Origin: an uncultured Candidatus Saccharibacteria bacterium
GTDB taxonomy: Bacteria > Patescibacteriota > Minisyncoccia > Phycocordibacterales > Phycocordibacteraceae
Reading direction: 5' to 3'
Length of the DNA stretch: 64,000 nucleotides
Assembly: GCA_964398865.1 (NCBI GenBank)
Contig: CAYNOO010000002.1
Coordinates: 3,588-67,587 of the forward strand
This document shows positions 2,413-39,357 of the stretch, piece after piece. The translations under genes and the position numbers were made by a program. A model generated the notes under the pieces. That model was not told where the DNA came from, made no database searches, and worked only from the letters and a program-made list of their open reading frames with translations. Position 1 is the stretch's first letter, and each line of letters begins with the position of its first letter.

Positions 2413-3075
2413 TTGCGCGGCATGATTTCGCTAAATCAAATGGCAAAAGAAAAACAGATAGAAGAGGAGGCGCTCTTTACGAGCATGGTGCGGGTAGGAC
2501 ATCCGATTCCTGATCTTGAGTTTGAAGCGTTTCATAACGAGAAGATCAAGAAAATTCACCTGTCCGATTACAAAGGGAAGTGGCTTGTCCTTTTCTTCTA
2601 TCCTGCTGACTTTACGTTTGTGTGCCCCACAGAGCTTGAAGAGCTTGCCGATTCCCACAAAGCATTTTCCGAATTGGATACTGAGATAGTGAGTATGAGT
2701 GCGGACACGGTATTTGCGCATAAGGCATGGCATGATGCGTCGCCAGCGATAGGGAAAATAGATTTCGCAATGGGTTCTGACCCTGCTGGCAGGCTTTCAC
2801 GCGCGTTTGGCACGTATATCCACGGGGGAGACCTTGAGTGTGCTGATGATGAAGGGCTCTCGCTTCGCGGTACATTCATCATTGACCCCGACGGCATTCT
2901 CTCTACCATGGAGATTCATGACAACTCTATTGGACGCTCAGCCAAAGAGTTGCTTCGCAAGCTTCAAGCCGCTCAATTCGTTCGTGCGCATGGTGGTCAA
3001 GTGTGTCCCGCTGAGTGGCAGCCGGGGGATGACACTCTGAAAGGCGGGGATTTGGATTTGGTAGGGAAGATTTGA
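2413..3075 (+). CDS. peroxiredoxin (AhpC/TSA family)
   Basis: GKWLVLFFYPADFTFVCPTE peroxidatic-Cys motif. The true start is probably an internal Met near 2485. Confidence 0.85.
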   Translation: MRGMISLNQMAKEKQIEEEALFTSMVRVGHPIPDLEFEAFHNEKIKKIHLSDYKGKWLVLFFYPADFTFVCPTELEELADSHKAFSELDTEIVSMSADTVFAHKAWHDASPAIGKIDFAMGSDPAGRLSRAFGTYIHGGDLECADDEGLSLRGTFIIDPDGILSTMEIHDNSIGRSAKELLRKLQAAQFVRAHGGQVCPAEWQPGDDTLKGGDLDLVGKI

Positions 3076-3122
3076 GTTAGCTTTCAGGTGTCAGGTTGCA
3101 GCTATCAGTCTCTGTCTGATAT

Positions 3123-3572
3123 ATGAATGCAGAAGAAGAGTTTCTGAAAGAACTTCGAGGAGCTGATGCCATTATTGGATATTCACCCTTGGAGGATGAA
3201 CCAGATGTACATGATTTTTTGGTAAAGAATCATATTCTTAAACCGGGGCGTTCCATTATTGCCGACAAGCACGCTTCTCCAGATGATTTTGCTGCATCTC
3301 TTTTGAAAGCGCATGCTGGTGAAAAGATCTGTATCCTTATTCCAGGTCGAGAATTTGACGCCTTCGGAGCTCGGCATGGGCGTGGTGGAGGTTGGTATGA
3401 TCGTTTTCTTTCCAAGGCACCGAGAGAGTGGGCACGCATCGGTGTTCTGCACGAGTCGCAATTCTCAACGGAAAAACTCGTTCGCAAAGCGTGGGATGAG
3501 CCGGTGAGCTATTTATTGATTGAAAAAGCGGGAGTTTGGGAGGTTGTATTAGCAGATAAAAAGGCTGAATGA
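3123..3572 (+). CDS. 5-formyltetrahydrofolate cyclo-ligase family protein
   Basis: C-terminal LIPGREFDAFGARHGRGGGWYDRFL matches the 5-FCL signature (GxGxGYYDR). The N-terminal EDEPD motif also fits. At 149 aa the protein is short. Confidence 0.65.
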   Translation: MNAEEEFLKELRGADAIIGYSPLEDEPDVHDFLVKNHILKPGRSIIADKHASPDDFAASLLKAHAGEKICILIPGREFDAFGARHGRGGGWYDRFLSKAPREWARIGVLHESQFSTEKLVRKAWDEPVSYLLIEKAGVWEVVLADKKAE

Positions 3573-3587
3573 TCAGATAATAACGAG

Positions 3588-3668
3588 TGCCCGGGGTGAG
3601 ACTCGAACTCACACCTCTCGCGAGACACGATTTTGAGTCGTGCGCGGCTACCATTACGCCACCCGGGC
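3588..3668 (-). tRNA. tRNA-Leu (anticodon CAA)
   Basis: The reverse complement folds as a cloverleaf: acceptor GCCCGGG/CCCGGGC, anticodon loop CTCAAAA, a long variable arm TCTCGCGAGAGGT (type II) and a T-arm GTGAGTTCGAGTCTCAC. No encoded CCA. Confidence 0.85.
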
Positions 3669-3724
3669 TTCGGTCACGCTATCCTAACGCAAAATTTCTT
3701 TCTTTACCATGTTAGAATTTCCGC

Positions 3725-4675
3725 ATGTCGCAGTTTCAAGGAGATGCAATTTTCTGGGTTGAGGTGGAGAAGATACGCCCGAATCAATACCAGCCGAGAA
3801 CTGAGTTTGATGAAGCGAAGCTGAAAGACCTTGCCGGTTCAATACGCCAGTATGGCGTCTTGCAGCCCTTGATGGTGACGCGTTTTGAGGAGTCGCGAGA
3901 AGATGGCGGGCTCTCAACATACTACGAGCTTATTGCAGGCGAGCGGAGACTCCGAGCCTCAAAACTTGCTGGTCTTTCACAAGTGCCAGTTATCATTCGC
4001 TCCACTGAAGAGCAGAGTCGCGTGAGGTTGGAACTCGCCATCATTGAGAACCTTCAGCGCGAAGATTTGAATGCCATTGATCGCGCACGCGCGTTTGACC
4101 GCTTACAGAAAGAATTTAACTTAAACAACACTGAGATTGCCGCAAAGGTGGGGAAGAGTCGCGAATATGTATCAAACTCGATTCGTCTCTTGGCGCTGCC
4201 AGCCGAGATGCAACAGGCAGTGATTGGAGGCGCAATTTATGAGGGTCATGCGCGCGCACTTCTTATGCTTACGGACAGACCGGAAGAGCAGAAAACGGTG
4301 TTCCGCGACATTCTGGTAAGAAAATTGTCGGTTCGTGACGTCGAACAGATGACGCGTCAAATTGCAGTCGAGAGAGCTCGCAAGCGCGATGTCACTCCGG
4401 AGATTGAGGCGCTTGAGCGTGCCTTCGCGGAGTCGCTAGGCACGAAGGTAGAAATAAAATCACAGGAGAAGGGCGGAAAACTCATCATCGATTTCTTTTC
4501 GACGGAAGACTTGGAGGGAATGCTCGCGCATATGGAGCGCCATAGTGCGTCTCCTGAGGCTAAGAACGCTACTCCTCCGAGCACGGAAACAAGAAATGAC
4601 ATGGTAGACGTGCCTTCAGAGTTGGACTCTGCTCCTGCCGATGATAACTTTTCTCTAGAGCATTTTTCTATTTAA
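3725..4675 (+). CDS. parB: ParB/Spo0J family chromosome partitioning protein
   Basis: ParB box LIAGERRLRAS plus a helix-turn-helix region. No parA gene is adjacent. Confidence 0.9.
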   Translation: MSQFQGDAIFWVEVEKIRPNQYQPRTEFDEAKLKDLAGSIRQYGVLQPLMVTRFEESREDGGLSTYYELIAGERRLRASKLAGLSQVPVIIRSTEEQSRVRLELAIIENLQREDLNAIDRARAFDRLQKEFNLNNTEIAAKVGKSREYVSNSIRLLALPAEMQQAVIGGAIYEGHARALLMLTDRPEEQKTVFRDILVRKLSVRDVEQMTRQIAVERARKRDVTPEIEALERAFAESLGTKVEIKSQEKGGKLIIDFFSTEDLEGMLAHMERHSASPEAKNATPPSTETRNDMVDVPSELDSAPADDNFSLEHFSI

Positions 4676-6198
4676 TTTTTCTCTTTCTTTTTCAACGTAG
4701 CGCGTATGTAGCGACGCGCCGATGCGGTTTTTGCATACTCGAGCCATTTTTTGTTTGGTGTACCTATCTTTTTAGTCTGTATCTCAACAATGTCTCCCTT
4801 ATGAAGTTCCGTGTCGAGCCCCACTAACTTACCGTTCACTTTTGCACCCGACAATAAATCTACGAGATTGGTGTGCACTGCGTACGCAAAGTCTATCGGT
4901 GTTGCCGTTATTGGCAGGTCGATGACATCTCCTTTTGGTGTGAAGACGAACATCCGTTTCGCGAAAAAGTCTTCGCGGAGTGCCTCCTGAAATGCTTGCT
5001 CTCCTTGAAATTCTTCAGCCGCGCTATTGAGGTCCGTGAGCCAGCGCGGTGTCGGCGCAGTCGCCGGCGTAGCGTCTGTTTTCTGCCCGCGTGCCATTTT
5101 CATTAGTGATGGCACGAAGCGCCATGCCCAAGGGACTTTCAGGGCATTTTCAGCACCCTTATGGTGGTTCTTGTAGATGAAGTGAGCTGCGACTCCGAAT
5201 TTGCTTTCTCGCTGCATCTCTTCTGAGCGAATCTGTATCTCGATGATGAGCTTGTGCGGCGTAATGATGGTGGTGTGAAGTGTACGGTAGCCATTGGGTT
5301 TTGGGCTCGCGATGTAATCCTTGATGCGTCCGGGAATCGGTCGCCAGATATTATGGATGACACCAAACGCTCTGTAGCAGTCTTCCATTGTTGGCACGAT
5401 GATACGTATTGCGAAGATGTCGTACACTTTGTCTGGATCGTTGTCTTTTCTGATGAGCTTTGTTGCGAAGCTATGAACATTCTTTACGCGCGCTTCCGTA
5501 CGGAATTTTCGTATGCCCGCCTCGGCAAGTGCTTTTCGAAGGTCATTAAGCGCTCTGTCTAGCGCTTCCTTTTCTGTTTCTCCGCGCTCTTCCAAGAATT
5601 GATGAATCTTCTGGTATCTCTCTGGCTCCAGAGTTTTGAATGCCAAGTCTTCCAGTTGTGCCTTGATGAGACCGATGCCAAGCCGCTCCGCGATAGGCAC
5701 GTATACCTCTTTCGTTTCAAGCGCGATGCGCATTCTCTTTTCGATAGGTTCCACGAAATTAATCGTCTCCATGTTATGCAACCGGTCTGCGAGCTTGATG
5801 ATGATGACGCGGATATCATTTGCCGTTGCGACGAGCAGGCGACGCAAACTCTCGACGTGCCGCTCGACGCCTCGATATTTTAATTTTGAAAGTTTCGTAA
5901 CGCCTTCCACGAGGAATCGCACCGTCGCACCGAATTCTTTTTCTATTTCTTCTATCGTTACAGGAGTATCTTCAACAGTATCGTGGAGAATGCCCGCGAT
6001 TATGGTCTCGCGATCCATTCCTAATTTTGCGAGTGTCACCGCAATAGCTTTCGGATGGATGATATAGGGCTCTCCCGATTTTCGTTTCTCATCTCCGTGC
6101 GCGCGCTTAGCAAATTCATACGCTCCCTGGATAGCTTTCTGGTCTTCCGAGGAAGGCGATTGCATCGCGCGTACTATGTCGTCGGTAGGATGAGGCAT
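4672..6198 (-). CDS. relA: bifunctional (p)ppGpp synthetase/hydrolase (RelA/SpoT family)
   Basis: HD-domain motif HDTVEDT, a RelA/SpoT synthetase core and TGS/ACT-like C-terminus. 508 aa. The stop overlaps the parB stop by 4 nt, so the two genes converge. Confidence 0.9.
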   Translation of the reverse strand: MPHPTDDIVRAMQSPSSEDQKAIQGAYEFAKRAHGDEKRKSGEPYIIHPKAIAVTLAKLGMDRETIIAGILHDTVEDTPVTIEEIEKEFGATVRFLVEGVTKLSKLKYRGVERHVESLRRLLVATANDIRVIIIKLADRLHNMETINFVEPIEKRMRIALETKEVYVPIAERLGIGLIKAQLEDLAFKTLEPERYQKIHQFLEERGETEKEALDRALNDLRKALAEAGIRKFRTEARVKNVHSFATKLIRKDNDPDKVYDIFAIRIIVPTMEDCYRAFGVIHNIWRPIPGRIKDYIASPKPNGYRTLHTTIITPHKLIIEIQIRSEEMQRESKFGVAAHFIYKNHHKGAENALKVPWAWRFVPSLMKMARGQKTDATPATAPTPRWLTDLNSAAEEFQGEQAFQEALREDFFAKRMFVFTPKGDVIDLPITATPIDFAYAVHTNLVDLLSGAKVNGKLVGLDTELHKGDIVEIQTKKIGTPNKKWLEYAKTASARRYIRATLKKKEKN

Positions 6199-25190: not shown

Positions 25191-25261
25191 TGGGGAGTCG
25201 TCTAATGGTAGGACAGAGGCCTTTGAAGCCTTTAATTGGGGTTCGAATCCCTGCTCCCCAG
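25191..25261 (+). tRNA. tRNA-Gln (anticodon UUG)
   Basis: A U1-A72 acceptor pair (TGGGGAG/CTCCCCA), anticodon loop CTTTGAA and T-loop GGTTCGAATCC. Followed by hairpin terminator AATCCCGATGtgtaagcCATCGGGATTtt. Confidence 0.85.
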
Positions 25262-25262
25262 C
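25244..25262 (+). repeat. direct repeat DR1, the 3' end of tRNA-Gln (CGAATCCCTGCTCCCCAGC)
   Basis: An identical 19-mer recurs at 25433-25451. Confidence 0.85.
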
Positions 25263-25432
25263 TAGAGAAAGTTGAATCCCGATGTGTAAGCATCGGGATT
25301 TTAATTTCTCTCTGTGGACAGGGATTCGAAAGACGGAGGCGCGAAGCCGCATGTCTCATGCGTCGCCGAGTCGGGGTCGAGAACACTTAGTATTTTACGA
25401 GCCTGAGAGTAAAATACTTAGTGATTCGTGAC

Positions 25433-25451
25433 CGAATCCCTGCTCCCCAGC
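25433..25451 (+). repeat. direct repeat DR2, a partial tRNA-Gln 3'-end copy (att-like)
   Basis: 19/19 identity to DR1. It sits immediately before the AT-rich islet. Confidence 0.85.
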
Positions 25452-25463
25452 AAAAAACATCAT

Positions 25464-25898
25464 ATGACAGAAATAAAAACAAAAGTGAATAAAGCGAGTG
25501 TAACGAAATTTTTGAGCACAGTTAAAGATATAGAGAAGCGCAAAGATTGCGTCGTCATTTCTAAAATGATGGAGAACGCAACTAAAGCTAAGCCGGAAAT
25601 GTGGGGGACTTCGATTGTTGGTTTTGGTCGAAGGAAGTATACGTATGCAAATGGGAAAGAGGGAGAGTGGATGATTATAGGTTTTTCTCCACGCAAACAA
25701 AACATCGCTCTCTATGGTTTAAAAATTTTCAAGATGACCACAGACGGTTTAAAAGAAAATAAAGGAGAAAACGATTTTCTTCTAAAATTAGGCAAATATA
25801 AAGAAGGAGGCGGATGCCTGTATATCAATAAGCTTTCCGATGTAGATAAAAAAGAGCTTGAAAAAATCATCAAACTCGCGGTGCATCGCAAAAAATAA
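25464..25898 (+). CDS. DUF1801 (YdhG/YdeI-like) domain protein
   Basis: Lys-rich and AT-rich gene. The KPEMWGTSIVGFG...WMIIGFSPRKQNIALYG pattern resembles the DUF1801 family. Start taken at the internal Met. Confidence 0.5.
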   Translation: MTEIKTKVNKASVTKFLSTVKDIEKRKDCVVISKMMENATKAKPEMWGTSIVGFGRRKYTYANGKEGEWMIIGFSPRKQNIALYGLKIFKMTTDGLKENKGENDFLLKLGKYKEGGGCLYINKLSDVDKKELEKIIKLAVHRKK

Positions 25899-33901: not shown

Positions 33902-34588
33902 CTAAAGCCCGAGCGCTCCGAGAAGTGTCTTCAGTTTCTCTCCTTGAATGGTCCGGTGCTGACCGGCTTTCAGATTGCATAGCTCTATATTCATGACGCG
34001 GATGCGCTCTAGGATTTCGATGTTCGCCCCCACCGCTACGCACATACGGCGTATCTGATGTTTTTTGCCTTCAGTGAGAGTAATAGTAAATGAAGTGTCG
34101 CTCTCGATATCTATAGTGCATGGCTTGGTCACGTACCCTTCGATGTCTACGCCCGCCTCCATTCGCTTCTTAAAATTCTTAGGAAGCGCGTCTGTCGTCG
34201 TAACTCGGTATTCTTTTTCGTGCACGTATTCAGGATTGAGGAGTTTGTCAGTAACCCGCCCATCGTCCGTGAGGATAATGAGCCCACTTGATTTCTTATC
34301 AAGCCTGCCGACAGGGAAGATGCCCTTGAGTGGAGTGGTCATGAGGATATCTTTCTCACCCTCCTGAGCCGAGTGGGTGACAATGCCGACAGGTTTGTTG
34401 TAGGCGAAGTAGTGACACTCCTTTCGAGTTCCGCGCACCTCCACCGTATCTGTTTCCTCCACCTTATCTCCCAAAACCGCTAATCTGCCGTTGATAGATA
34501 CCAGCCCTTCTGAAATAAGCGTATCCGCCCCTTTCCGAGTCGCATATCCCTTAGATGCTAGATATTTGTTGATGCGAACTGACGCCAT
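33902..34588 (-). CDS. rRNA pseudouridine synthase (RsuA/RluB family)
   Basis: S4 domain (VRINKYLASKGYATRKGADTLISEGLVSING) plus a PseudoU_synth_2 core (PVGRLDKKSSGLIILTDDG). Start placed at the internal Met. The full ORF extends to 34801. Confidence 0.8.
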   Translation of the reverse strand: MASVRINKYLASKGYATRKGADTLISEGLVSINGRLAVLGDKVEETDTVEVRGTRKECHYFAYNKPVGIVTHSAQEGEKDILMTTPLKGIFPVGRLDKKSSGLIILTDDGRVTDKLLNPEYVHEKEYRVTTTDALPKNFKKRMEAGVDIEGYVTKPCTIDIESDTSFTITLTEGKKHQIRRMCVAVGANIEILERIRVMNIELCNLKAGQHRTIQGEKLKTLLGALGL

Positions 34589-34793
34589 CGAGTCAGTATA
34601 TAGGTGGTAGCTTTTTAAGCTATTATGCGATGTAGCGACATCGTGTCGTACCTGCGTCCACTGAGGGACGACCAGAATTCGGTCGAATCCATTCGTTTCC
34701 AGGCGATTTCCAAGTTTGAACCGAAATGAAATAAAGGTATTCTGAAGCCTCAATCCTTTTGAGCTTACGTTTGAACCGCAGAGGTAGCATTTT

Positions 34794-35777
34794 ATGAACA
34801 AAGGAAAAGCATTTGAGTATGCGTCTGCGATTGCGCTTCGTGATGCTGTTATAGCTTCAGGGGAGCTTGATGCCGTTTTAGAAGAGAATCCATCACTTCA
34901 AATTGCCCGACGTTGTTTCGCTGAAATTGAGGTAGAGGCTCCAGAAGCAGCACGAAAATTAATGGTTGTTGCTGAAGCTTCCGCAAAACTTCTGTTGGAG
35001 GCTGAGCCAAAATTAACTAGTCTCGAAGAAGGATTCTCTTCTTCGGTGCTGATTTCTTTGCAGCCGGACGCCGCAGGGGTGAGCGGTGACGTTAGGGATA
35101 TCGTCGTCACCAAAAGAGCTACTGGGAACGGAGCAGATTGGGCGATAGGGCTTTCTTGCAAGCATAACAATGACGCCGTCAAACATCAGCGTTTGTCGCC
35201 TTCAATTAACTTTGGTCAGCAATGGCTCGGTGTTCCTCTCCTTGCTGAGGATTTTACTGAGCTCGATCGAATTTTTTCACAGATTGATGCAGATAAAGTG
35301 CAAGGGTTTGCAGATTGGAATCAAATTCCGAATAAGGAAGCTCGTTACTATCAGCCATTGCTGCAGTTGGTGCTTGATAAAATTGCTTCAAACCCCGATC
35401 AGAATGCTTTAGCTGAGCGGCTACTATCCTACCTGATAGGCAATGAAGATTTTTATAAAGTAATCATGAATGAAGGGCTCAGGGGAAACGCTCAATTAAC
35501 ATTCCAAGGCTTTAACTTTAATGGCTCTCTGAATCAAGCAGCCTTAGGAGGAGAAAGGGCCCATACGGCTGTGGCACGGCTAACCCTGCCGAATCATATT
35601 ATTGATGCCAGCATGAAGCCTAATAGCGCCAATACCTTAAAAATATCTTTTGGCGGGGGATGGCAAGTTTCCATGCGCATACATAGTGCCAGCACCAAGT
35701 TACAGAAAAGCTTAAAAATGGATGTGCGATTGCTGGAGACCCCGCCAGAGCTTTTTAGTCAAACGGTTAGCATTTGA
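34794..35777 (+). CDS. candidate type II restriction endonuclease (cognate of the downstream GGCC-family methyltransferase)
   Basis: 327-aa ORF ending 17 bp upstream of the C5-methyltransferase on the same strand. No housekeeping homology. Context-based assignment. Confidence 0.45.
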   Translation: MNKGKAFEYASAIALRDAVIASGELDAVLEENPSLQIARRCFAEIEVEAPEAARKLMVVAEASAKLLLEAEPKLTSLEEGFSSSVLISLQPDAAGVSGDVRDIVVTKRATGNGADWAIGLSCKHNNDAVKHQRLSPSINFGQQWLGVPLLAEDFTELDRIFSQIDADKVQGFADWNQIPNKEARYYQPLLQLVLDKIASNPDQNALAERLLSYLIGNEDFYKVIMNEGLRGNAQLTFQGFNFNGSLNQAALGGERAHTAVARLTLPNHIIDASMKPNSANTLKISFGGGWQVSMRIHSASTKLQKSLKMDVRLLETPPELFSQTVSI

Positions 35778-35794
35778 TAGGGTAAAATATACCT

Positions 35795-36832
35795 ATGCGG
35801 GTTGCATCTCTTTTTTCCGGAGCTGGCGGTTTAGACTTGGGCTTTAAGAAAGCCGGTTTTGATGTCGTGTGGGCAAATGAATATGATCCCGCGATTTGGA
35901 AAACATTTGAATTAAATTTCCCTGATACCACTTTAGATCGGCGAAACGTCGTTGACGTTGCTTCGGAAGACATTCCGGATGTTGATGGGATTATTGGCGG
36001 ACCACCGTGCCAGAGCTGGAGCGAAGCGGGAGCTGGCAGGGGGGTCAATGATAAACGCGGGCGACTTTTTTTTGACTATATCCGGATTTTGAAAGATAAA
36101 GAACCTTTATTTTTCTTAGCAGAAAATGTTTCTGGAATCCTTTTCGACCGTCATGCAAGCGCGTTTGCTGAGATAGTGAGGCAGTTTAGCGATGCTGGAT
36201 ATTCGGTGAATTATAAATTATTGAATGCGCATGACTACGACGTTCCTGAAGATCGCCTGCGAGTGATTATCGTGGGCTACCATAAGAAACTTGGGCGAAC
36301 ATTTGAATTTCCTGAACCCATCACTGAAAAGATTTTTCTTAAAGACGCGATTGGCAATTTGCCTCCCGCAACACCGGCAAAGGCGATGAATAAAACTAAT
36401 GGAGAAAACCTTTCCATCCCTAACCACGAATATATGACGGGTGGATTTTCGACTATGTATATGTCGCGTAATCGTGTTCGCTCATGGGGCGAGCCTTCTT
36501 TCACAATTCAGGCAGGAGGTCGCCATGCGCCCATTCATCCGCAGGCGCCAAAAATGCAATTGATTTCCAAGGATGTGCGTATTTTTGCTCCGGGGAAAGA
36601 ACACCTGTACCGACGCTTATCGGTCCGTGAGTGCGCGCGCATTCAGACTTTCCCTGATAATTTTATTTTTGATTATAAAAATATCGGAGACGGCTACAAG
36701 ATGATCGGTAACGCGGTGCCAGTTAATTTTGCTAAAGCTATCGCGAAAAAAATAAAAAAAGATCTTTCAATGGGGCGCTCTACTTCGAGGCAATCGCTCA
36801 AAGGAGGTAAAGAGTTCGCTCTATTTGCCTAA
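35795..36832 (+). CDS. DNA (cytosine-5)-methyltransferase, M.HaeIII-like (GGCC family)
   Basis: Motif I FSGAGGLDLGF, motif IV GGPPCQSWS and ENV. The variable region (NKTNGEN, PNHEY, MSRNRVRSW, KEHLYRRLSVRECARIQTFPDNFIF, DGYKMIGNAVPVN) matches M.HaeIII as I recall it. Confidence 0.85.
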   Translation: MRVASLFSGAGGLDLGFKKAGFDVVWANEYDPAIWKTFELNFPDTTLDRRNVVDVASEDIPDVDGIIGGPPCQSWSEAGAGRGVNDKRGRLFFDYIRILKDKEPLFFLAENVSGILFDRHASAFAEIVRQFSDAGYSVNYKLLNAHDYDVPEDRLRVIIVGYHKKLGRTFEFPEPITEKIFLKDAIGNLPPATPAKAMNKTNGENLSIPNHEYMTGGFSTMYMSRNRVRSWGEPSFTIQAGGRHAPIHPQAPKMQLISKDVRIFAPGKEHLYRRLSVRECARIQTFPDNFIFDYKNIGDGYKMIGNAVPVNFAKAIAKKIKKDLSMGRSTSRQSLKGGKEFALFA

Positions 36833-36882: not shown

Positions 36883-39357
36883 ATGTTTAAAAAAATAAAA
36901 GACACTTCGATCCTTCGAAACGCACGCCAAGGACTTGAGCGGGAAGCCTTGCGAGTGGATGGTCAGGGGCGTATCGCAACGAACCTTCATCCGAACGCGT
37001 TCGGGTCACCGCTTACCAATCCCTATATCACACTTGATTTTTCTGAAGCGCAGCTTGAATTCATCACGCCGCCTTTGAAGGGAGGGCCGGCTCTCCGGGG
37101 CTTTCTTGAGAAACTCTACGCGTGGAGCTACCGGCAGATCGGTAGGGAGCTTCTCTGGCCGTTCAGCATGCCAGGAAAGTTGCCGGAGCACAGAAAGATA
37201 GCGCTTGCTCAGTTTGGTGCTTCTGTGGACGCTGAAGCGAAGCGCATCTACCGCGAAGGCTTGAAGCAGCGCTATGGCGGCGCCGTGCAGACTATCTCGG
37301 GCATCCATTACAATTTCTCTCTTTCTGAATCCTTCTGGAGCGCATACGCGAGGGAGTGCGGCATTCTAGGCGATATATCGTCCTTCAAAGACGAGCAGTA
37401 TTTTTCCCTGATGCGGAACGTCATCCGCTATGTGCCTTTAGTGACGTATCTTTTCGGTGCGTCCCCAGCCGCCGATAAGAGCTTTTTTACATCGCATCCT
37501 GAAAGTTTGAAGCAGCTCGATGCTTCAACATGGTACGGACCGTGGGCGACGTCCTTGCGACTCAGCGATTTTGGCTACCATAATGCGAAACGCAGTCCCG
37601 CTAGCGTTTCCTTCAACTCGCTTTCGGAATATGTGAATGATCTCTACAAAGCGGTATCAACTCCGTCGAAATTGTGGAGCGCGCTCGGCACCGAGGAGAG
37701 CGGGAAACAGATACAGCTCAACACGAACATATTGCAACTTGAGAACGAGTTCTATGCTTCCATACGCCCCAAACAAAAGACGCACATGCACCCTGGAGAG
37801 AGTGTCCTTTGTTCCTTGGCGTGCGCGGGAGTGGAGTATGTAGAACTTCGAAGCATCGACCTTGACCCTTATGATCCGGCTGGAATTGGCGAGGAAGAAC
37901 TCTCTTTTCTCCATGCGTTCATGACCTATTGTTTACTGGTGCCGAGCGCTCGGTTTAAGGAAGGCGAGCAGAAGAAACTGGAAGACACTCACTCGCTCGT
38001 CGCGCTCATGGGTCGCAAGCCCGGTCTTGCTATCGATACGGGATCGCGGAAAGAGATTTTTTCGGCATGGGCGTCAAAGGCGCTGAAGGCTATTGCTGAA
38101 GTCGCGGAACTTTTGGATGAGGCGCATGAGACAAAACGATTTTCGCGGGTGGTGGCAGCGCAAGCGGAAAAGTTAGCAGACTCAGAGCTTACCCCTTCTG
38201 CGCGCGTCATCCGTGAGATGAGAGAGAAAGGAATCTCCTATGCTCTATACGGTGTGGCACTCGCGAAATCATACAAAGCCTCTGCGCGCGCTCTAGCCTT
38301 GTCTGCTTCATATCAGGCGGAGATGAAAGAGCTTGCCCGTATTTCTCTCGAGGAAGCATCGCGTCGCGAAGCATATGATGATTGGATACTGAAAGGCTAT
38401 GAGCATCTCGAGCTCTCTACTCAGATAGTGATACGAGCCGCACAGAAGCGAGGCATCGTCGTCGAAGTTCTTGACCCTACGCTCAACGTTATTGAGCTCA
38501 CGAAAGGAAAGAAGAAAGAGGTCGTGAAGCAAGGAACTATCACGCGCTATGACAATTACCTCGGGTATGAGCTCATGAACCACAAATCTCTCACGAAGCT
38601 TTTTCTTCTGCATGCTGGCATCTCGACGCCTCAAGGAGAGCGATTCACGGATAAGCAGGAAGCTCTTGATTTTTATCCAGCGCATTGCTCGCATGCGCTT
38701 GTCGTGAAGCCTTCCAGTACCAACTACGGCACGGGCGTCTCGATCGTCCGTCCTCGCGGAGATAAGGCATATCAATTAGCTGTTGAGCGAGCCTTCAAGC
38801 ATGACAGCACCATCCTCGTCGAGGAGTTCATCCCCGGAAAGGAATACCGTTTTCTCGTAATAGCTGGCAAGGTTATCGCAGTTCTGAACCGCGACCCGGC
38901 AAATGTGATAGGAGACGGAATACACAGCATTCGTGAGCTGGTGGAAGCGAAGAACACGGACCCCTTGAGTTATAAGCTGCCCGAGAAATATATTCACCTC
39001 CGAGCTGTCGAGAAAGAAATACTCGCCGAAGCGAAGCTCACGCCTGACTCCGTCCCTTCGCGAAATCGGAAAGTGTATCTGCGGAAGAACTCCAACGTGA
39101 ACGACGGAGGAGATCCTATCGACATACCCGACATGCCTGCGGCATACAAGAGGATAGCCATTCGCGCGGCTCGGACAGTGGGCGCGAATATATGCGGAGT
39201 CGATATGATAATCAAAGATCCCCTGAAGGTTCCGAAGGCGAACAATCATTCCATCATCGAGCTGAATTGGAATCCGGCGCTCTACCTCCACGGCTACCCG
39301 ATCAAAGGAAAACGACGCGATGTGGGCGGGGCAGTCTTAGATTTCTTGGGGTTTTGA
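36883..39357 (+). CDS. gshF: bifunctional glutamate-cysteine ligase/glutathione synthetase
   Basis: N-terminal GshA-like region (GLEREALRVDGQGRIATNLHP...LEFITPP) fused to a C-terminal ATP-grasp domain. 824 aa. Confidence 0.8.
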   Translation: MFKKIKDTSILRNARQGLEREALRVDGQGRIATNLHPNAFGSPLTNPYITLDFSEAQLEFITPPLKGGPALRGFLEKLYAWSYRQIGRELLWPFSMPGKLPEHRKIALAQFGASVDAEAKRIYREGLKQRYGGAVQTISGIHYNFSLSESFWSAYARECGILGDISSFKDEQYFSLMRNVIRYVPLVTYLFGASPAADKSFFTSHPESLKQLDASTWYGPWATSLRLSDFGYHNAKRSPASVSFNSLSEYVNDLYKAVSTPSKLWSALGTEESGKQIQLNTNILQLENEFYASIRPKQKTHMHPGESVLCSLACAGVEYVELRSIDLDPYDPAGIGEEELSFLHAFMTYCLLVPSARFKEGEQKKLEDTHSLVALMGRKPGLAIDTGSRKEIFSAWASKALKAIAEVAELLDEAHETKRFSRVVAAQAEKLADSELTPSARVIREMREKGISYALYGVALAKSYKASARALALSASYQAEMKELARISLEEASRREAYDDWILKGYEHLELSTQIVIRAAQKRGIVVEVLDPTLNVIELTKGKKKEVVKQGTITRYDNYLGYELMNHKSLTKLFLLHAGISTPQGERFTDKQEALDFYPAHCSHALVVKPSSTNYGTGVSIVRPRGDKAYQLAVERAFKHDSTILVEEFIPGKEYRFLVIAGKVIAVLNRDPANVIGDGIHSIRELVEAKNTDPLSYKLPEKYIHLRAVEKEILAEAKLTPDSVPSRNRKVYLRKNSNVNDGGDPIDIPDMPAAYKRIAIRAARTVGANICGVDMIIKDPLKVPKANNHSIIELNWNPALYLHGYPIKGKRRDVGGAVLDFLGF

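What the first reader, a model, noticed from the sequence alone, without database searches (positions are those of the whole stretch)
34794..36832. Type II restriction-modification operon: M.HaeIII-like C5-methyltransferase with an upstream candidate endonuclease
ORF 35795-36832 has all the C5-methyltransferase motifs, and its variable region closely resembles M.HaeIII (GGCC). The upstream 327-aa ORF is separated by 17 bp on the same strand. It has no housekeeping similarity and is the likely cognate restriction endonuclease. The pair sits between a divergently transcribed pseudouridine synthase and gshF, which looks like an insertion into a housekeeping neighbourhood.
Basis: partly seen in the sequence, partly recalled or inferred. 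Interest (0 to 1): 0.5.

Follow-up and report, generated by a model that had tools for sequence, protein, structure and literature searches.

The report
HaeIII-type GGCC restriction-modification gene pair
This is an ordinary two-gene bacterial defence system, an enzyme that cuts the DNA word GGCC plus a partner that protects the host's own GGCC sites by methylation, sitting in a Patescibacteria (CPR) genome that has lost about 90% of its GGCC sites.

Summary
ORF 34794-35777 (327 aa) matches Pfam RE_HaeIII over its full length (E=3.6e-71) and keeps all 46 residues invariant in 40 family members. ORF 35795-36832 (345 aa), 17 bp downstream on the same strand, is a C5-cytosine methyltransferase 57% identical to crystallised M.HaeIII. 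It has all catalytic motifs and the four residues reported to read GGCC. GGCC is the most depleted of all 256 tetramers in the window (16 sites against 138-178 expected). It is also the most depleted tetramer pooled over 80 other genomes carrying this endonuclease family (0.40). It is much less depleted in a close relative (0.63 against 0.06 over the same syntenic stretch). The host is a Patescibacteria/Parcubacteria-group bacterium. No relative examined carries an orthologous R-M, so the pair was acquired in this lineage. A clean insertion between the pseudouridine synthase and gshF cannot be shown, because local gene order is rearranged and gshF itself looks accessory. The predicted endonuclease structure (pLDDT 95) resembles only HinP1I and MspI. 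This is a new member of a known kind. Enzymatic activity and methylation are inferred, not measured.

The parts
34589..34793 (.). Divergent intergenic region upstream of the R gene. It presumably holds the operon promoter, which was not identified. It contains a GAGG ribosome-binding site at 34781-34784, 9 nt before the ATG, and two exact copies of GTTTGAACCG at 34714-34723 and 34769-34778.
   Evidence: Sequence read. No sigma-70-like match on the + strand. No ORF of controller-protein size. The 10-mer has only these two exact copies in 64 kb. The left boundary assumes the pseudouridine synthase starts at the ATG at 34588 (S4 domain begins at ORF residue 75).
34794..35777 (+). R gene: HaeIII-family Type IIP restriction endonuclease, 327 aa, predicted to cleave unmethylated GGCC.
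35778..35794 (+). 17-bp spacer between the R stop codon (TGA 35775-35777) and the M start codon, with a weak AGGG Shine-Dalgarno-like element at 35779-35782.
   Evidence: Sequence read. No terminator-like site in the spacer.
35795..36832 (+). M gene: M.HaeIII-like DNA (cytosine-5) methyltransferase, 345 aa, predicted to make GGm5CC.
   Evidence: PF00145 E=1.1e-93, TIGR00675 6.7e-81. M.HaeIII 1dct E=1.7e-121, 57% identity overall and 49-55% in the variable region. Base-contact residues S224/R225/R227/R243 conserved.

Best explanation
A two-gene Type IIP restriction-modification operon of the HaeIII family, ordered R then M on one strand, in the chromosome of a Patescibacteria (Parcubacteria-group) bacterium. 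The methyltransferase flips out the inner cytosine of GGCC and methylates it at C5, using Cys72 of the PPCQ motif and S-adenosylmethionine. This protects host DNA. The endonuclease cleaves unmethylated GGCC in incoming DNA. Shown here: family membership of both proteins, intact conserved residues, conserved R-M linkage across the family, and strong, specific, lineage-restricted loss of GGCC from the host genome. Inferred: GGCC as the actual site; blunt GG^CC cleavage, as for the prototype; a HinP1I/MspI-like PD-(D/E)XK-type active site built from the invariant E71, D99/D102 and S121-x-K123; co-transcription of R and M; and acquisition by horizontal transfer after the split from the nearest sequenced relative, followed by selection against GGCC sites.
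For: R: PF09556 full length, E=3.6e-71. All 46 invariant columns of a 40-member alignment retained. M: 57% identical to crystallised M.HaeIII along its whole length, with the four residues reported to contact the GGCC bases conserved (PMC3526282). Linkage: 77 of 80 reference-genome loci with this REase family have a same-strand C5-MTase adjacent. The closest clade (L009, L010/L002, L001, L052) shares the R-then-M order and has MTases 65-74% identical. Site: GGCC 16 observed against 178+/-12 in shuffles. It is the lowest of 256 tetramers, obs/exp 0.12, z=-12.6, and all 16 NGGCCN contexts are depleted. Pooled over 598 kb of other carriers, GGCC is again the lowest tetramer at 0.40, against CCGG 0.84, GCGC 0.87 and AGCT 0.93. 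Lineage specificity: the syntenic locus of a close relative (UvrB 92%, DNA 73-81%) has 0.63, against 0.06 in the matching window segment, and only 1 of its 11 aligned GGCC sites survives in the window. 80 related metagenome loci pool to 0.79 and none carries R or an M.HaeIII-like M. No REase above 51% identity exists in 5.8 billion proteins. Fold: AF2 pLDDT 95; the only significant matches are HinP1I and MspI.
Against: No enzymatic or methylome data, so activity and the exact site are inferred. No promoter was recognised upstream of R and no terminator after M, so the transcription unit is undefined. Motif VIII of the MTase reads EDRLR instead of the usual QxRxR, although the same variant occurs in a partner MTase of a related system. 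GC3 of R and M (0.40, 0.42) is only 1.2-1.5 sd below the window mean, so composition is weak evidence for recent transfer. A roughly 90% purge of GGCC implies long residence, which sits uneasily with 'recent' acquisition. No Vsr repair gene accompanies the MTase, unlike in the closest relatives. The catalytic-residue assignment rests on a predicted model and on my recollection of the HinP1I motif, not on a residue-level structural alignment.
Confidence: 0.88

Rival explanations
1. It is a HaeIII-family R-M pair whose recognition site is not plain GGCC, for example a longer or degenerate site that contains or resembles GGCC.
For: Specificity was never measured. The REase is only 50% or less identical to any other family member, and the MTase variable region is 49-55% identical to M.HaeIII. 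In directed evolution, few mutations shifted M.HaeIII specificity (PMC3526282).
Against: The four reported base-contact residues are all conserved. GGCC is depleted about 10-fold in all 16 flanking contexts, which a 6-bp site could not produce. No other tetramer is comparably depleted.
Confidence: 0.05
2. The endonuclease is no longer active, and the methyltransferase now works as a solitary (orphan) enzyme, for example in epigenetic regulation. The GGCC depletion would then be a relic.
For: Activity is untested. R genes do decay in this family: L001 has a 218-aa truncated R beside an intact M. No promoter was found upstream of R.
Against: The R ORF is full length, covers the whole Pfam profile and keeps every family-invariant residue. 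The model folds with pLDDT 95. The depletion is the strongest among carriers with enough expected sites (window 0.12 against carrier median 0.36), as expected for continuing pressure.
Confidence: 0.07
3. The GGCC depletion was not caused by this R-M pair. It could come from another GGCC-specific system elsewhere in the genome or in the ancestry, or from mutational decay of GGm5CC by deamination in the absence of Vsr repair.
For: Only 64 kb of the genome is visible. No Vsr homologue lies in the window. Relatives already show mild GGCC under-representation of 0.63-0.84.
Against: The deamination products GGTC/GACC are not specifically enriched (1.12x against relatives, less than GGCA/TGCC at 1.20x). 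At orthologous positions, lost sites became GGCA, GTCC, GGCG, GGCT, CGCC and AGAG, and only one became GGTC. Strong depletion coincides with presence of the system in this genome and with carriage of the family in 80 other genomes.
Confidence: 0.12
4. The methyltransferase belongs to a larger defence system (Druantia DruM or DISARM DrmMII) rather than to a simple Type II pair.
For: PADLOC DruM and DrmMII models hit the MTase strongly (8e-103 and 3.8e-69).
Against: Those are generic C5-MTase similarities, and the top PADLOC model is MTase_II (7.6e-108). The neighbours are a HaeIII REase, a pseudouridine synthase and gshF, with none of the large helicase or DUF partner genes that those systems need.
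Confidence: 0.01

Closest known systems
HaeIII restriction-modification system of Haemophilus aegyptius (R.HaeIII, Pfam PF09556; M.HaeIII, PDB 1DCT/3UBT), GG^CC
   Same: The REase matches the family profile over its full length. The MTase is 57% identical to M.HaeIII with the same motifs and the same base-contact residues. It is a two-gene Type IIP system. GGCC is implicated by genome composition.
   Different: The REase is a divergent branch, 50% or less identical to anything else on record. The host is a Patescibacteria MAG. Motif VIII of the MTase starts with E instead of Q. I did not have the prototype R.HaeIII sequence for a direct comparison.
The R-then-M-then-Vsr HaeIII-family cassettes in L009 (Gammaproteobacteria MAG) and L010/L002 (MAG E14_maxbin.173)
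   Same: Closest relatives: REase 46-48% and MTase 73-74% identical, with the same R-then-M order on one strand and a short spacer.
   Different: Those cassettes carry a Vsr mismatch endonuclease gene right after M. In L002 the cassette lies next to a serine recombinase and HTH genes, which is a mobile context. The window has neither: gshF follows M after 50 bp.
Majority HaeIII-family arrangement in Clostridia, Bacteroides and others (68 of 80 reference loci)
   Same: Same REase family, with an adjacent same-strand C5-MTase and GGCC depletion in the hosts.
   Different: The gene order is M then R, and the MTase is only about 40% identical to the window's. Some loci have two flanking MTases (M-R-M).
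HinP1I (G^CGC) and MspI (C^CGG), monomeric PD-(D/E)XK Type IIP endonucleases
   Different: There is no detectable sequence similarity, even profile against PDB. The cleavage geometry differs if the enzyme cuts blunt like HaeIII. Monomeric action of HaeIII-family enzymes is not established here.
NgoPII/MthTI/FnuDI, BsuRI and BspRI: other GG^CC restriction enzymes
   Same: Same recognition site, with related GGCC-specific C5-MTases as partners.
   Different: Their endonucleases are unrelated in sequence and are cited as convergent evolution (PMC4081073; PMC2978348). The window's REase belongs to the HaeIII family, not to these.

Membership tests
HaeIII-family Type II restriction endonuclease (Pfam PF09556) | Full-length match to the family profile above the curated threshold | tested here: met
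   240.2 bits against a cutoff of 25; residues 4-317 on profile 1-298/298. PADLOC REase_II 2.3e-77.
HaeIII-family Type II restriction endonuclease (Pfam PF09556) | Retention of residues invariant across the family | tested here: met
   All 46 invariant columns of a 40-sequence alignment, including E8, E71, D92, D99, R101, D102, S121, K123, H124, N125, H131 and R133.
HaeIII-family Type II restriction endonuclease (Pfam PF09556) | Direct similarity to the biochemically characterised prototype R.HaeIII | not tested
Membership rests on the Pfam model named after it and on curated annotations of homologues as 'HaeIII family restriction endonuclease'.
HaeIII-family Type II restriction endonuclease (Pfam PF09556) | Cleavage of unmethylated GG^CC | not testable with these tools
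   Indirect evidence only: GGCC is the most depleted tetramer in the window (0.12) and in 80 carrier loci pooled (0.40).
Type II R-M system (cognate pair) | REase gene adjacent to a methyltransferase gene of matching specificity | tested here: met
   17-bp gap on the same strand. An adjacent same-strand C5-MTase in 77 of 80 family loci.
M.HaeIII-like C5-cytosine methyltransferase (PF00145 / TIGR00675) | Conserved motifs I, IV (PCQ catalytic Cys), VI (ENV), VIII, IX and X | tested here: met
   All located. Motif VIII is EDRLR rather than QxRxR, a variant shared with the L002 partner MTase.
M.HaeIII-like C5-cytosine methyltransferase (PF00145 / TIGR00675) | Target-recognition domain like M.HaeIII, with its GGCC base-contact residues | tested here: met
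   Variable region 49-55% identical with at most a 1-residue gap. S224, R225, R227 and R243 are invariant in alignment A2; their roles are taken from PMC3526282.
M.HaeIII-like C5-cytosine methyltransferase (PF00145 / TIGR00675) | Methylation of the inner cytosine of GGCC | not testable with these tools
   Needs methylome data or an in-vitro assay.
PD-(D/E)XK nuclease fold, HinP1I/MspI-like | Structural similarity of the core to solved members | tested here: met
PD-(D/E)XK nuclease fold, HinP1I/MspI-like | Canonical acidic-acidic-lysine catalytic motif, D...(D/E)xK | tested here: inconclusive
   The invariant block is GD99VRD102...S121-C-K123, with Ser where D/E is canonical. E71 is a possible relocated acid. 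No residue-level structural alignment or coordinates were available.
C-protein-controlled R-M systems | A small HTH controller gene upstream of R | tested here: not met
   Only 32-55-aa ORFs in the 205-bp upstream region, and no HTH gene adjacent.
m5C R-M cassettes with Vsr repair | A vsr gene next to the MTase | tested here: not met
   tblastn of the L002 Vsr against the whole window gave a best E of 1.2. Vsr is present in L009 and L010.
Druantia / DISARM (PADLOC DruM, DrmMII hits) | Large partner genes (DruE; DrmA/B/C) adjacent | tested here: not met
   The neighbours are a HaeIII REase, a pseudouridine synthase and gshF.

The most novel reading that the evidence does not exclude
After this CPR lineage acquired the HaeIII-type system, its small genome lost about 90% of its GGCC sites within the time that separates it from a relative with about 78% DNA identity. 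The losses came through varied substitutions rather than C-to-T decay. This would mean the host's own endonuclease exerts continuing, strong self-restriction pressure, for example through incomplete methylation in a repair-poor, Vsr-less cell. Together with the predicted HinP1I/MspI-like fold and an atypical D...SxK site, it would also place the HaeIII endonuclease family, listed under 'unknown superfamily' in 2008, among monomer-type PD-(D/E)XK enzymes.
Probability: 0.35. Interest if true: 0.4.

Novelty: new member of a known kind. Interest (0 to 1): 0.22.

Why it matters
For annotation, both genes can be named with confidence, and the organism's DNA can be predicted to resist HaeIII-type digestion and to carry GGm5CC. 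The window also gives a clean natural example of recognition-site avoidance tied to one identifiable R-M system: 0.06-0.12 of expectation here, 0.63 in a close relative, and 0.79 in the wider clade. This could be used to date the residence of the R-M system or to study self-restriction pressure in reduced CPR genomes. The confident structure model, which resembles only HinP1I and MspI, offers a testable fold and active-site hypothesis for a classic enzyme family with no solved structure. None of this changes current understanding of R-M biology.

Tried and rejected
1. A reference-genome scan with gshF found no relatives, and the exact-protein look-up of the window REase returned nothing. Host identity therefore came from a UvrB homology search.
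2. Sequence searches of the REase against PDB found no credible relative, either as a single sequence or as a 40-sequence profile (best E=0.016, a partial low-complexity match). The link to HinP1I/MspI is structural only.
3. I looked for insertion scars. No target-site duplication or terminal inverted repeats bracket the pair, only short chance-level repeats, and no integrase or transposase is adjacent.
4. I looked for an empty site. The nearest gshF-bearing relatives (L004, L006) have the same genes in a different order. None of the 80 ABC-F-related metagenome loci has gshF or R-M nearby. A simple insertion between the pseudouridine synthase and gshF therefore can be neither confirmed nor excluded.
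5. Deamination-driven loss of GGm5CC is not supported by neighbour-tetramer enrichment or by orthologous-site comparison. Numbers in the latter are small (10 changed sites).
6. The promoter and terminator scans gave nothing usable for the + strand upstream of R or between M and gshF. The consensus may not apply to CPR bacteria.
7. The primary HinP1I papers (PMC1074309, PMC1363774) are not held. The HinP1I 'SDX18QXK' motif that I compare with is from memory.
8. The 2012 PD-(D/E)XK survey does not mention HaeIII or PF09556 in its main text. A search for papers linking HaeIII with HinP1I/MspI or AlphaFold found none, which is not proof that the link is unpublished.
9. Druantia and DISARM readings of the PADLOC hits were rejected for lack of partner genes.
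Full report
**Observation**

Upstream on the opposite strand lies a pseudouridine synthase (S4 + PseudoU_synth_2 domains). Downstream on the same strand lies a bifunctional glutamate-cysteine ligase/glutathione synthetase. The mechanical ORF for the synthase runs to 34801 and would overlap the R start. Its S4 domain begins at residue 75, right after an in-frame ATG (MASVRINKYL), so the real start is probably 34588. That leaves a 205-bp divergent intergenic region.

**The upstream gene**

- It matches Pfam RE_HaeIII (PF09556) from end to end: E=3.6e-71, 240 bits against a curated cutoff of 25, profile positions 1-298 of 298.
- It also matches a PADLOC Type II REase model at 2.3e-77.
- A search of 5.8 billion proteins returned 425 homologues. 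All 120 listed carry PF09556, and the named ones are called 'HaeIII family restriction endonuclease'. The same name is used on seven plasmid records. No phage record has the family.
- The nearest non-self relative is only about 50% identical, so this is a divergent branch.
- In an alignment of 40 members the window protein keeps all 46 invariant positions.

It is not met.

**The downstream gene**

- It is a C5-cytosine methyltransferase (PF00145 E=1.1e-93; TIGR00675 6.7e-81).
- Its best solved relative by a wide margin is M.HaeIII (1dct, E=1.7e-121, residues 1-322 aligned to 1-322). M.HhaI scores only about 1e-37.
- Identity to M.HaeIII is 57% overall, 56% in the catalytic half, 49-55% in the variable (target-recognition) region with a single one-residue gap, and 73% over motifs IX-X.
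- Motifs I, IV (PPCQ, Cys72), VI, IX and X are canonical. Motif VIII reads EDRLR rather than QxRxR, a variant also present in the partner MTase of a related system.
- Rockah-Shmuel and Tawfik (PMC3526282), citing the 1995 crystal structure, report that Arg225 contacts the first guanine, that Ser224 and Arg227 contact the inner bases, and that Arg243Gln reduces GGCC methylation. All four residues are conserved here and in the two partner MTases aligned.

**Independent evidence for GGCC**

- The window has 16 GGCC sites against 178+/-12 in dinucleotide-preserving shuffles.
- Under a second-order Markov model GGCC is the most depleted of all 256 tetramers (obs/exp 0.12, z=-12.6). The control palindromes CCGG, GCGC and CGCG stand at 0.92-1.01.
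- All 16 NGGCCN contexts are depleted (0-4 observed against 12-15 expected). This fits a 4-bp site, not a longer site that contains GGCC.
- A scan of one genome per species found 509 loci encoding the REase family. In the best 80 (598 kb), GGCC is again the most depleted tetramer at 0.40. The next is GATC at 0.64, and CCGG, GCGC and AGCT stand at 0.84-0.93.

So carriage of this endonuclease family goes with GGCC avoidance across phyla.

**Linkage and arrangement**

Of those 80 loci, 77 have a C5-MTase next to the REase on the same strand. Two of the other three are cut by contig ends. The commonest order (68 loci) is M then R, with an MTase only about 40% identical to the window's. The window's order, R then M with an M.HaeIII-like MTase, is shared with its nearest relatives: L009, L010/L002 (MTase 73-74%), L052 (65%) and L001. 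In L009 and L010 a Vsr mismatch endonuclease gene follows M, and in L002 the cassette lies beside a serine recombinase. The window has no Vsr homologue anywhere (best E=1.2) and no controller-protein gene upstream.

**Host and history**

UvrB from the same window is 92% identical to that of 'Parcubacteria group bacterium Greene0714_7'. The following named hits are all Patescibacteria. The locus around that relative's uvrB is syntenic with the window and 73-81% identical in DNA.

- Over the relative's locus, GGCC stands at 0.63 of expectation. Over the matching window segment it stands at 0.06. A second relative (UvrB 87%) stands at 0.84.
- Of the relative's 11 GGCC sites in aligned blocks, one is kept in the window. 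The others are replaced by GGCA (3), GTCC (2), GGCG, GGTC, GGCT, CGCC and AGAG.
- Neither this comparison nor the neighbour-tetramer analysis (GGTC/GACC only 1.12-fold up) shows the C-to-T signature expected if deamination of GGm5CC were the main cause. The numbers are small.
- Eighty metagenome loci carrying the neighbouring ABC-F gene at 66-81% identity contain no R, no M.HaeIII-like M and no gshF. They pool to GGCC 0.79.
- No REase orthologue above 51% identity exists in the protein collection.

The simplest reading is that the pair entered this lineage after it split from its nearest sequenced relatives and has been resident long enough to purge most GGCC sites. That R-M systems drive avoidance of their own sites in host genomes is established (Gelfand and Koonin 1997; Rocha et al. 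2001; Rusinov et al. 2015; from my own knowledge, not checked here).

**The 'insertion into a housekeeping neighbourhood' claim**

This part is only partly supported.

For it:
- The pair is lineage-specific.
- Its GC3 (0.40 and 0.42) is below that of the immediate flanks (0.55 and 0.58).

Against a simple picture:
- The GC3 values are only 1.5 and 1.2 sd below the window mean, ranking 5th and 10th lowest of 50 genes.
- There are no flanking repeats or mobility genes.
- The two nearest gshF-bearing relatives link the same genes (gshF, PF06983 gene, pseudouridine synthase, ABC-F, HI0933-like) in a different order.
- gshF itself has no homologue above 69% identity even though UvrB has one at 92%, so gshF is probably accessory too.

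The pair therefore sits at a rearranged, variable junction, not in a demonstrably conserved housekeeping block.

**Mechanism of the endonuclease**

- No member of the family has a solved structure detectable by sequence, even with a profile.
- The 2008 classification of Type II enzymes lists the HaeIII family under 'Unknown superfamily' (PMC2441816).
- The 2014 review names HaeIII, NgoPII and BsuRI as convergent GG|CC cutters (PMC4081073).
- An AlphaFold2 model built on the 40-sequence alignment is confident (mean pLDDT 95, pTM 0.89).
- Foldseek finds one significant PDB match, HinP1I (E=2.3e-4, prob 0.99).
- These are PD-(D/E)XK-type enzymes for 4-bp G/C palindromes. [quoted passage not shown]
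- In the model, the invariant GD99-V-R-D102 precedes strand 103-109. The invariant S121-C-K123 lies in strand 116-124. The invariant E71-P72 ends the long helix 50-70.

I infer a variant PD-(D/E)XK site, D...SxK with E71 as a possible additional acid. By my recollection this is comparable to the 'SDX18QXK' motif of HinP1I. The inference is not tested at residue level. I found no paper in the held library that makes this link, but the library is incomplete.

**Expression**

R has a GAGG element 9 nt before its ATG. M has a weaker AGGG 12 nt before its ATG. No sigma-70-like promoter was detected on the + strand upstream of R, and no terminator between M and gshF. The consensus scan may not apply to this phylum. 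How methylation is made to precede restriction is unknown, since there is no controller gene.

**Verdict**

This is a correct, well-read finding of an ordinary kind: a new, divergent member of the HaeIII-family Type IIP R-M systems in a Patescibacteria genome. The features of modest interest are the very strong, lineage-restricted GGCC avoidance and the fold prediction for the endonuclease family.

Noticed in passing
window 1-64000 (whole window); also L007, L089, L091 and the pooled loci: GATC is the second most depleted tetramer in the window (154 against 294 expected, z=-11). It is also low in relatives and in the carrier loci (0.34-0.77). This suggests long-standing exposure of these lineages to a GATC-specific system. 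No such system was seen in the window.
   Followed up: partly
window 36883-39357: The bifunctional gshF has no homologue above 69% identity, although UvrB from the same window has a 92% relative. None of the 80 related ABC-F loci has gshF within 10 kb. The next tier of homologues is from Chlamydiales (43-44%). gshF is probably an accessory, horizontally acquired gene in this CPR lineage.
   Followed up: partly
window 34714-34723 and 34769-34778: The 10-mer GTTTGAACCG occurs exactly twice in the 64-kb window, 55 bp apart, and both copies lie within 80 bp upstream of the R start codon. It could be a regulatory repeat or chance.
   Followed up: partly
L006 630-2604: A relative (gshF 69% identical) carries a different R-M pair, RE_NgoBV plus a convergent C5-MTase, about 6 kb upstream of its gshF. 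The surroundings of gshF may be a variable defence-gene region in this clade.
   Followed up: no
L064, L068, L069, L073, L074 (about 3040-5930 in each): In several Faecousia/Oscillospiraceae genomes the HaeIII-family REase is flanked on both sides by same-strand C5-MTase genes (M-R-M), 38% and 31-34% identical to the window's MTase.
   Followed up: no
L072 4001-4903: A Cloacimonadales MAG has a full-length HaeIII-family REase with no C5-MTase homologue within 4 kb on either side. It appears to be a solitary endonuclease gene.
   Followed up: no
L001 10001-11703: A 218-aa truncated REase (60% identical over 66% of the query) sits directly upstream of an intact 347-aa MTase. It looks like an R-M pair in decay.
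   Followed up: no
protein P0068: A 509-aa protein combines a PF00717 (LexA/S24 peptidase-like) domain with RE_HaeIII, an unusual fusion.
   Followed up: no
window 25191-25898: A 156-aa ORF with very low GC (0.374, against about 0.49 for the window) lies about 170 bp downstream of a tRNA gene (25191-25261). It may be a small foreign insert at a tRNA.
   Followed up: no
window 36248-36262 (MTase residues 152-156): Motif VIII of the methyltransferase reads EDRLR instead of the usual QxRxR. The same substitution is present in the partner MTase of L002, whereas L001 and M.HaeIII have Q.
   Followed up: partly
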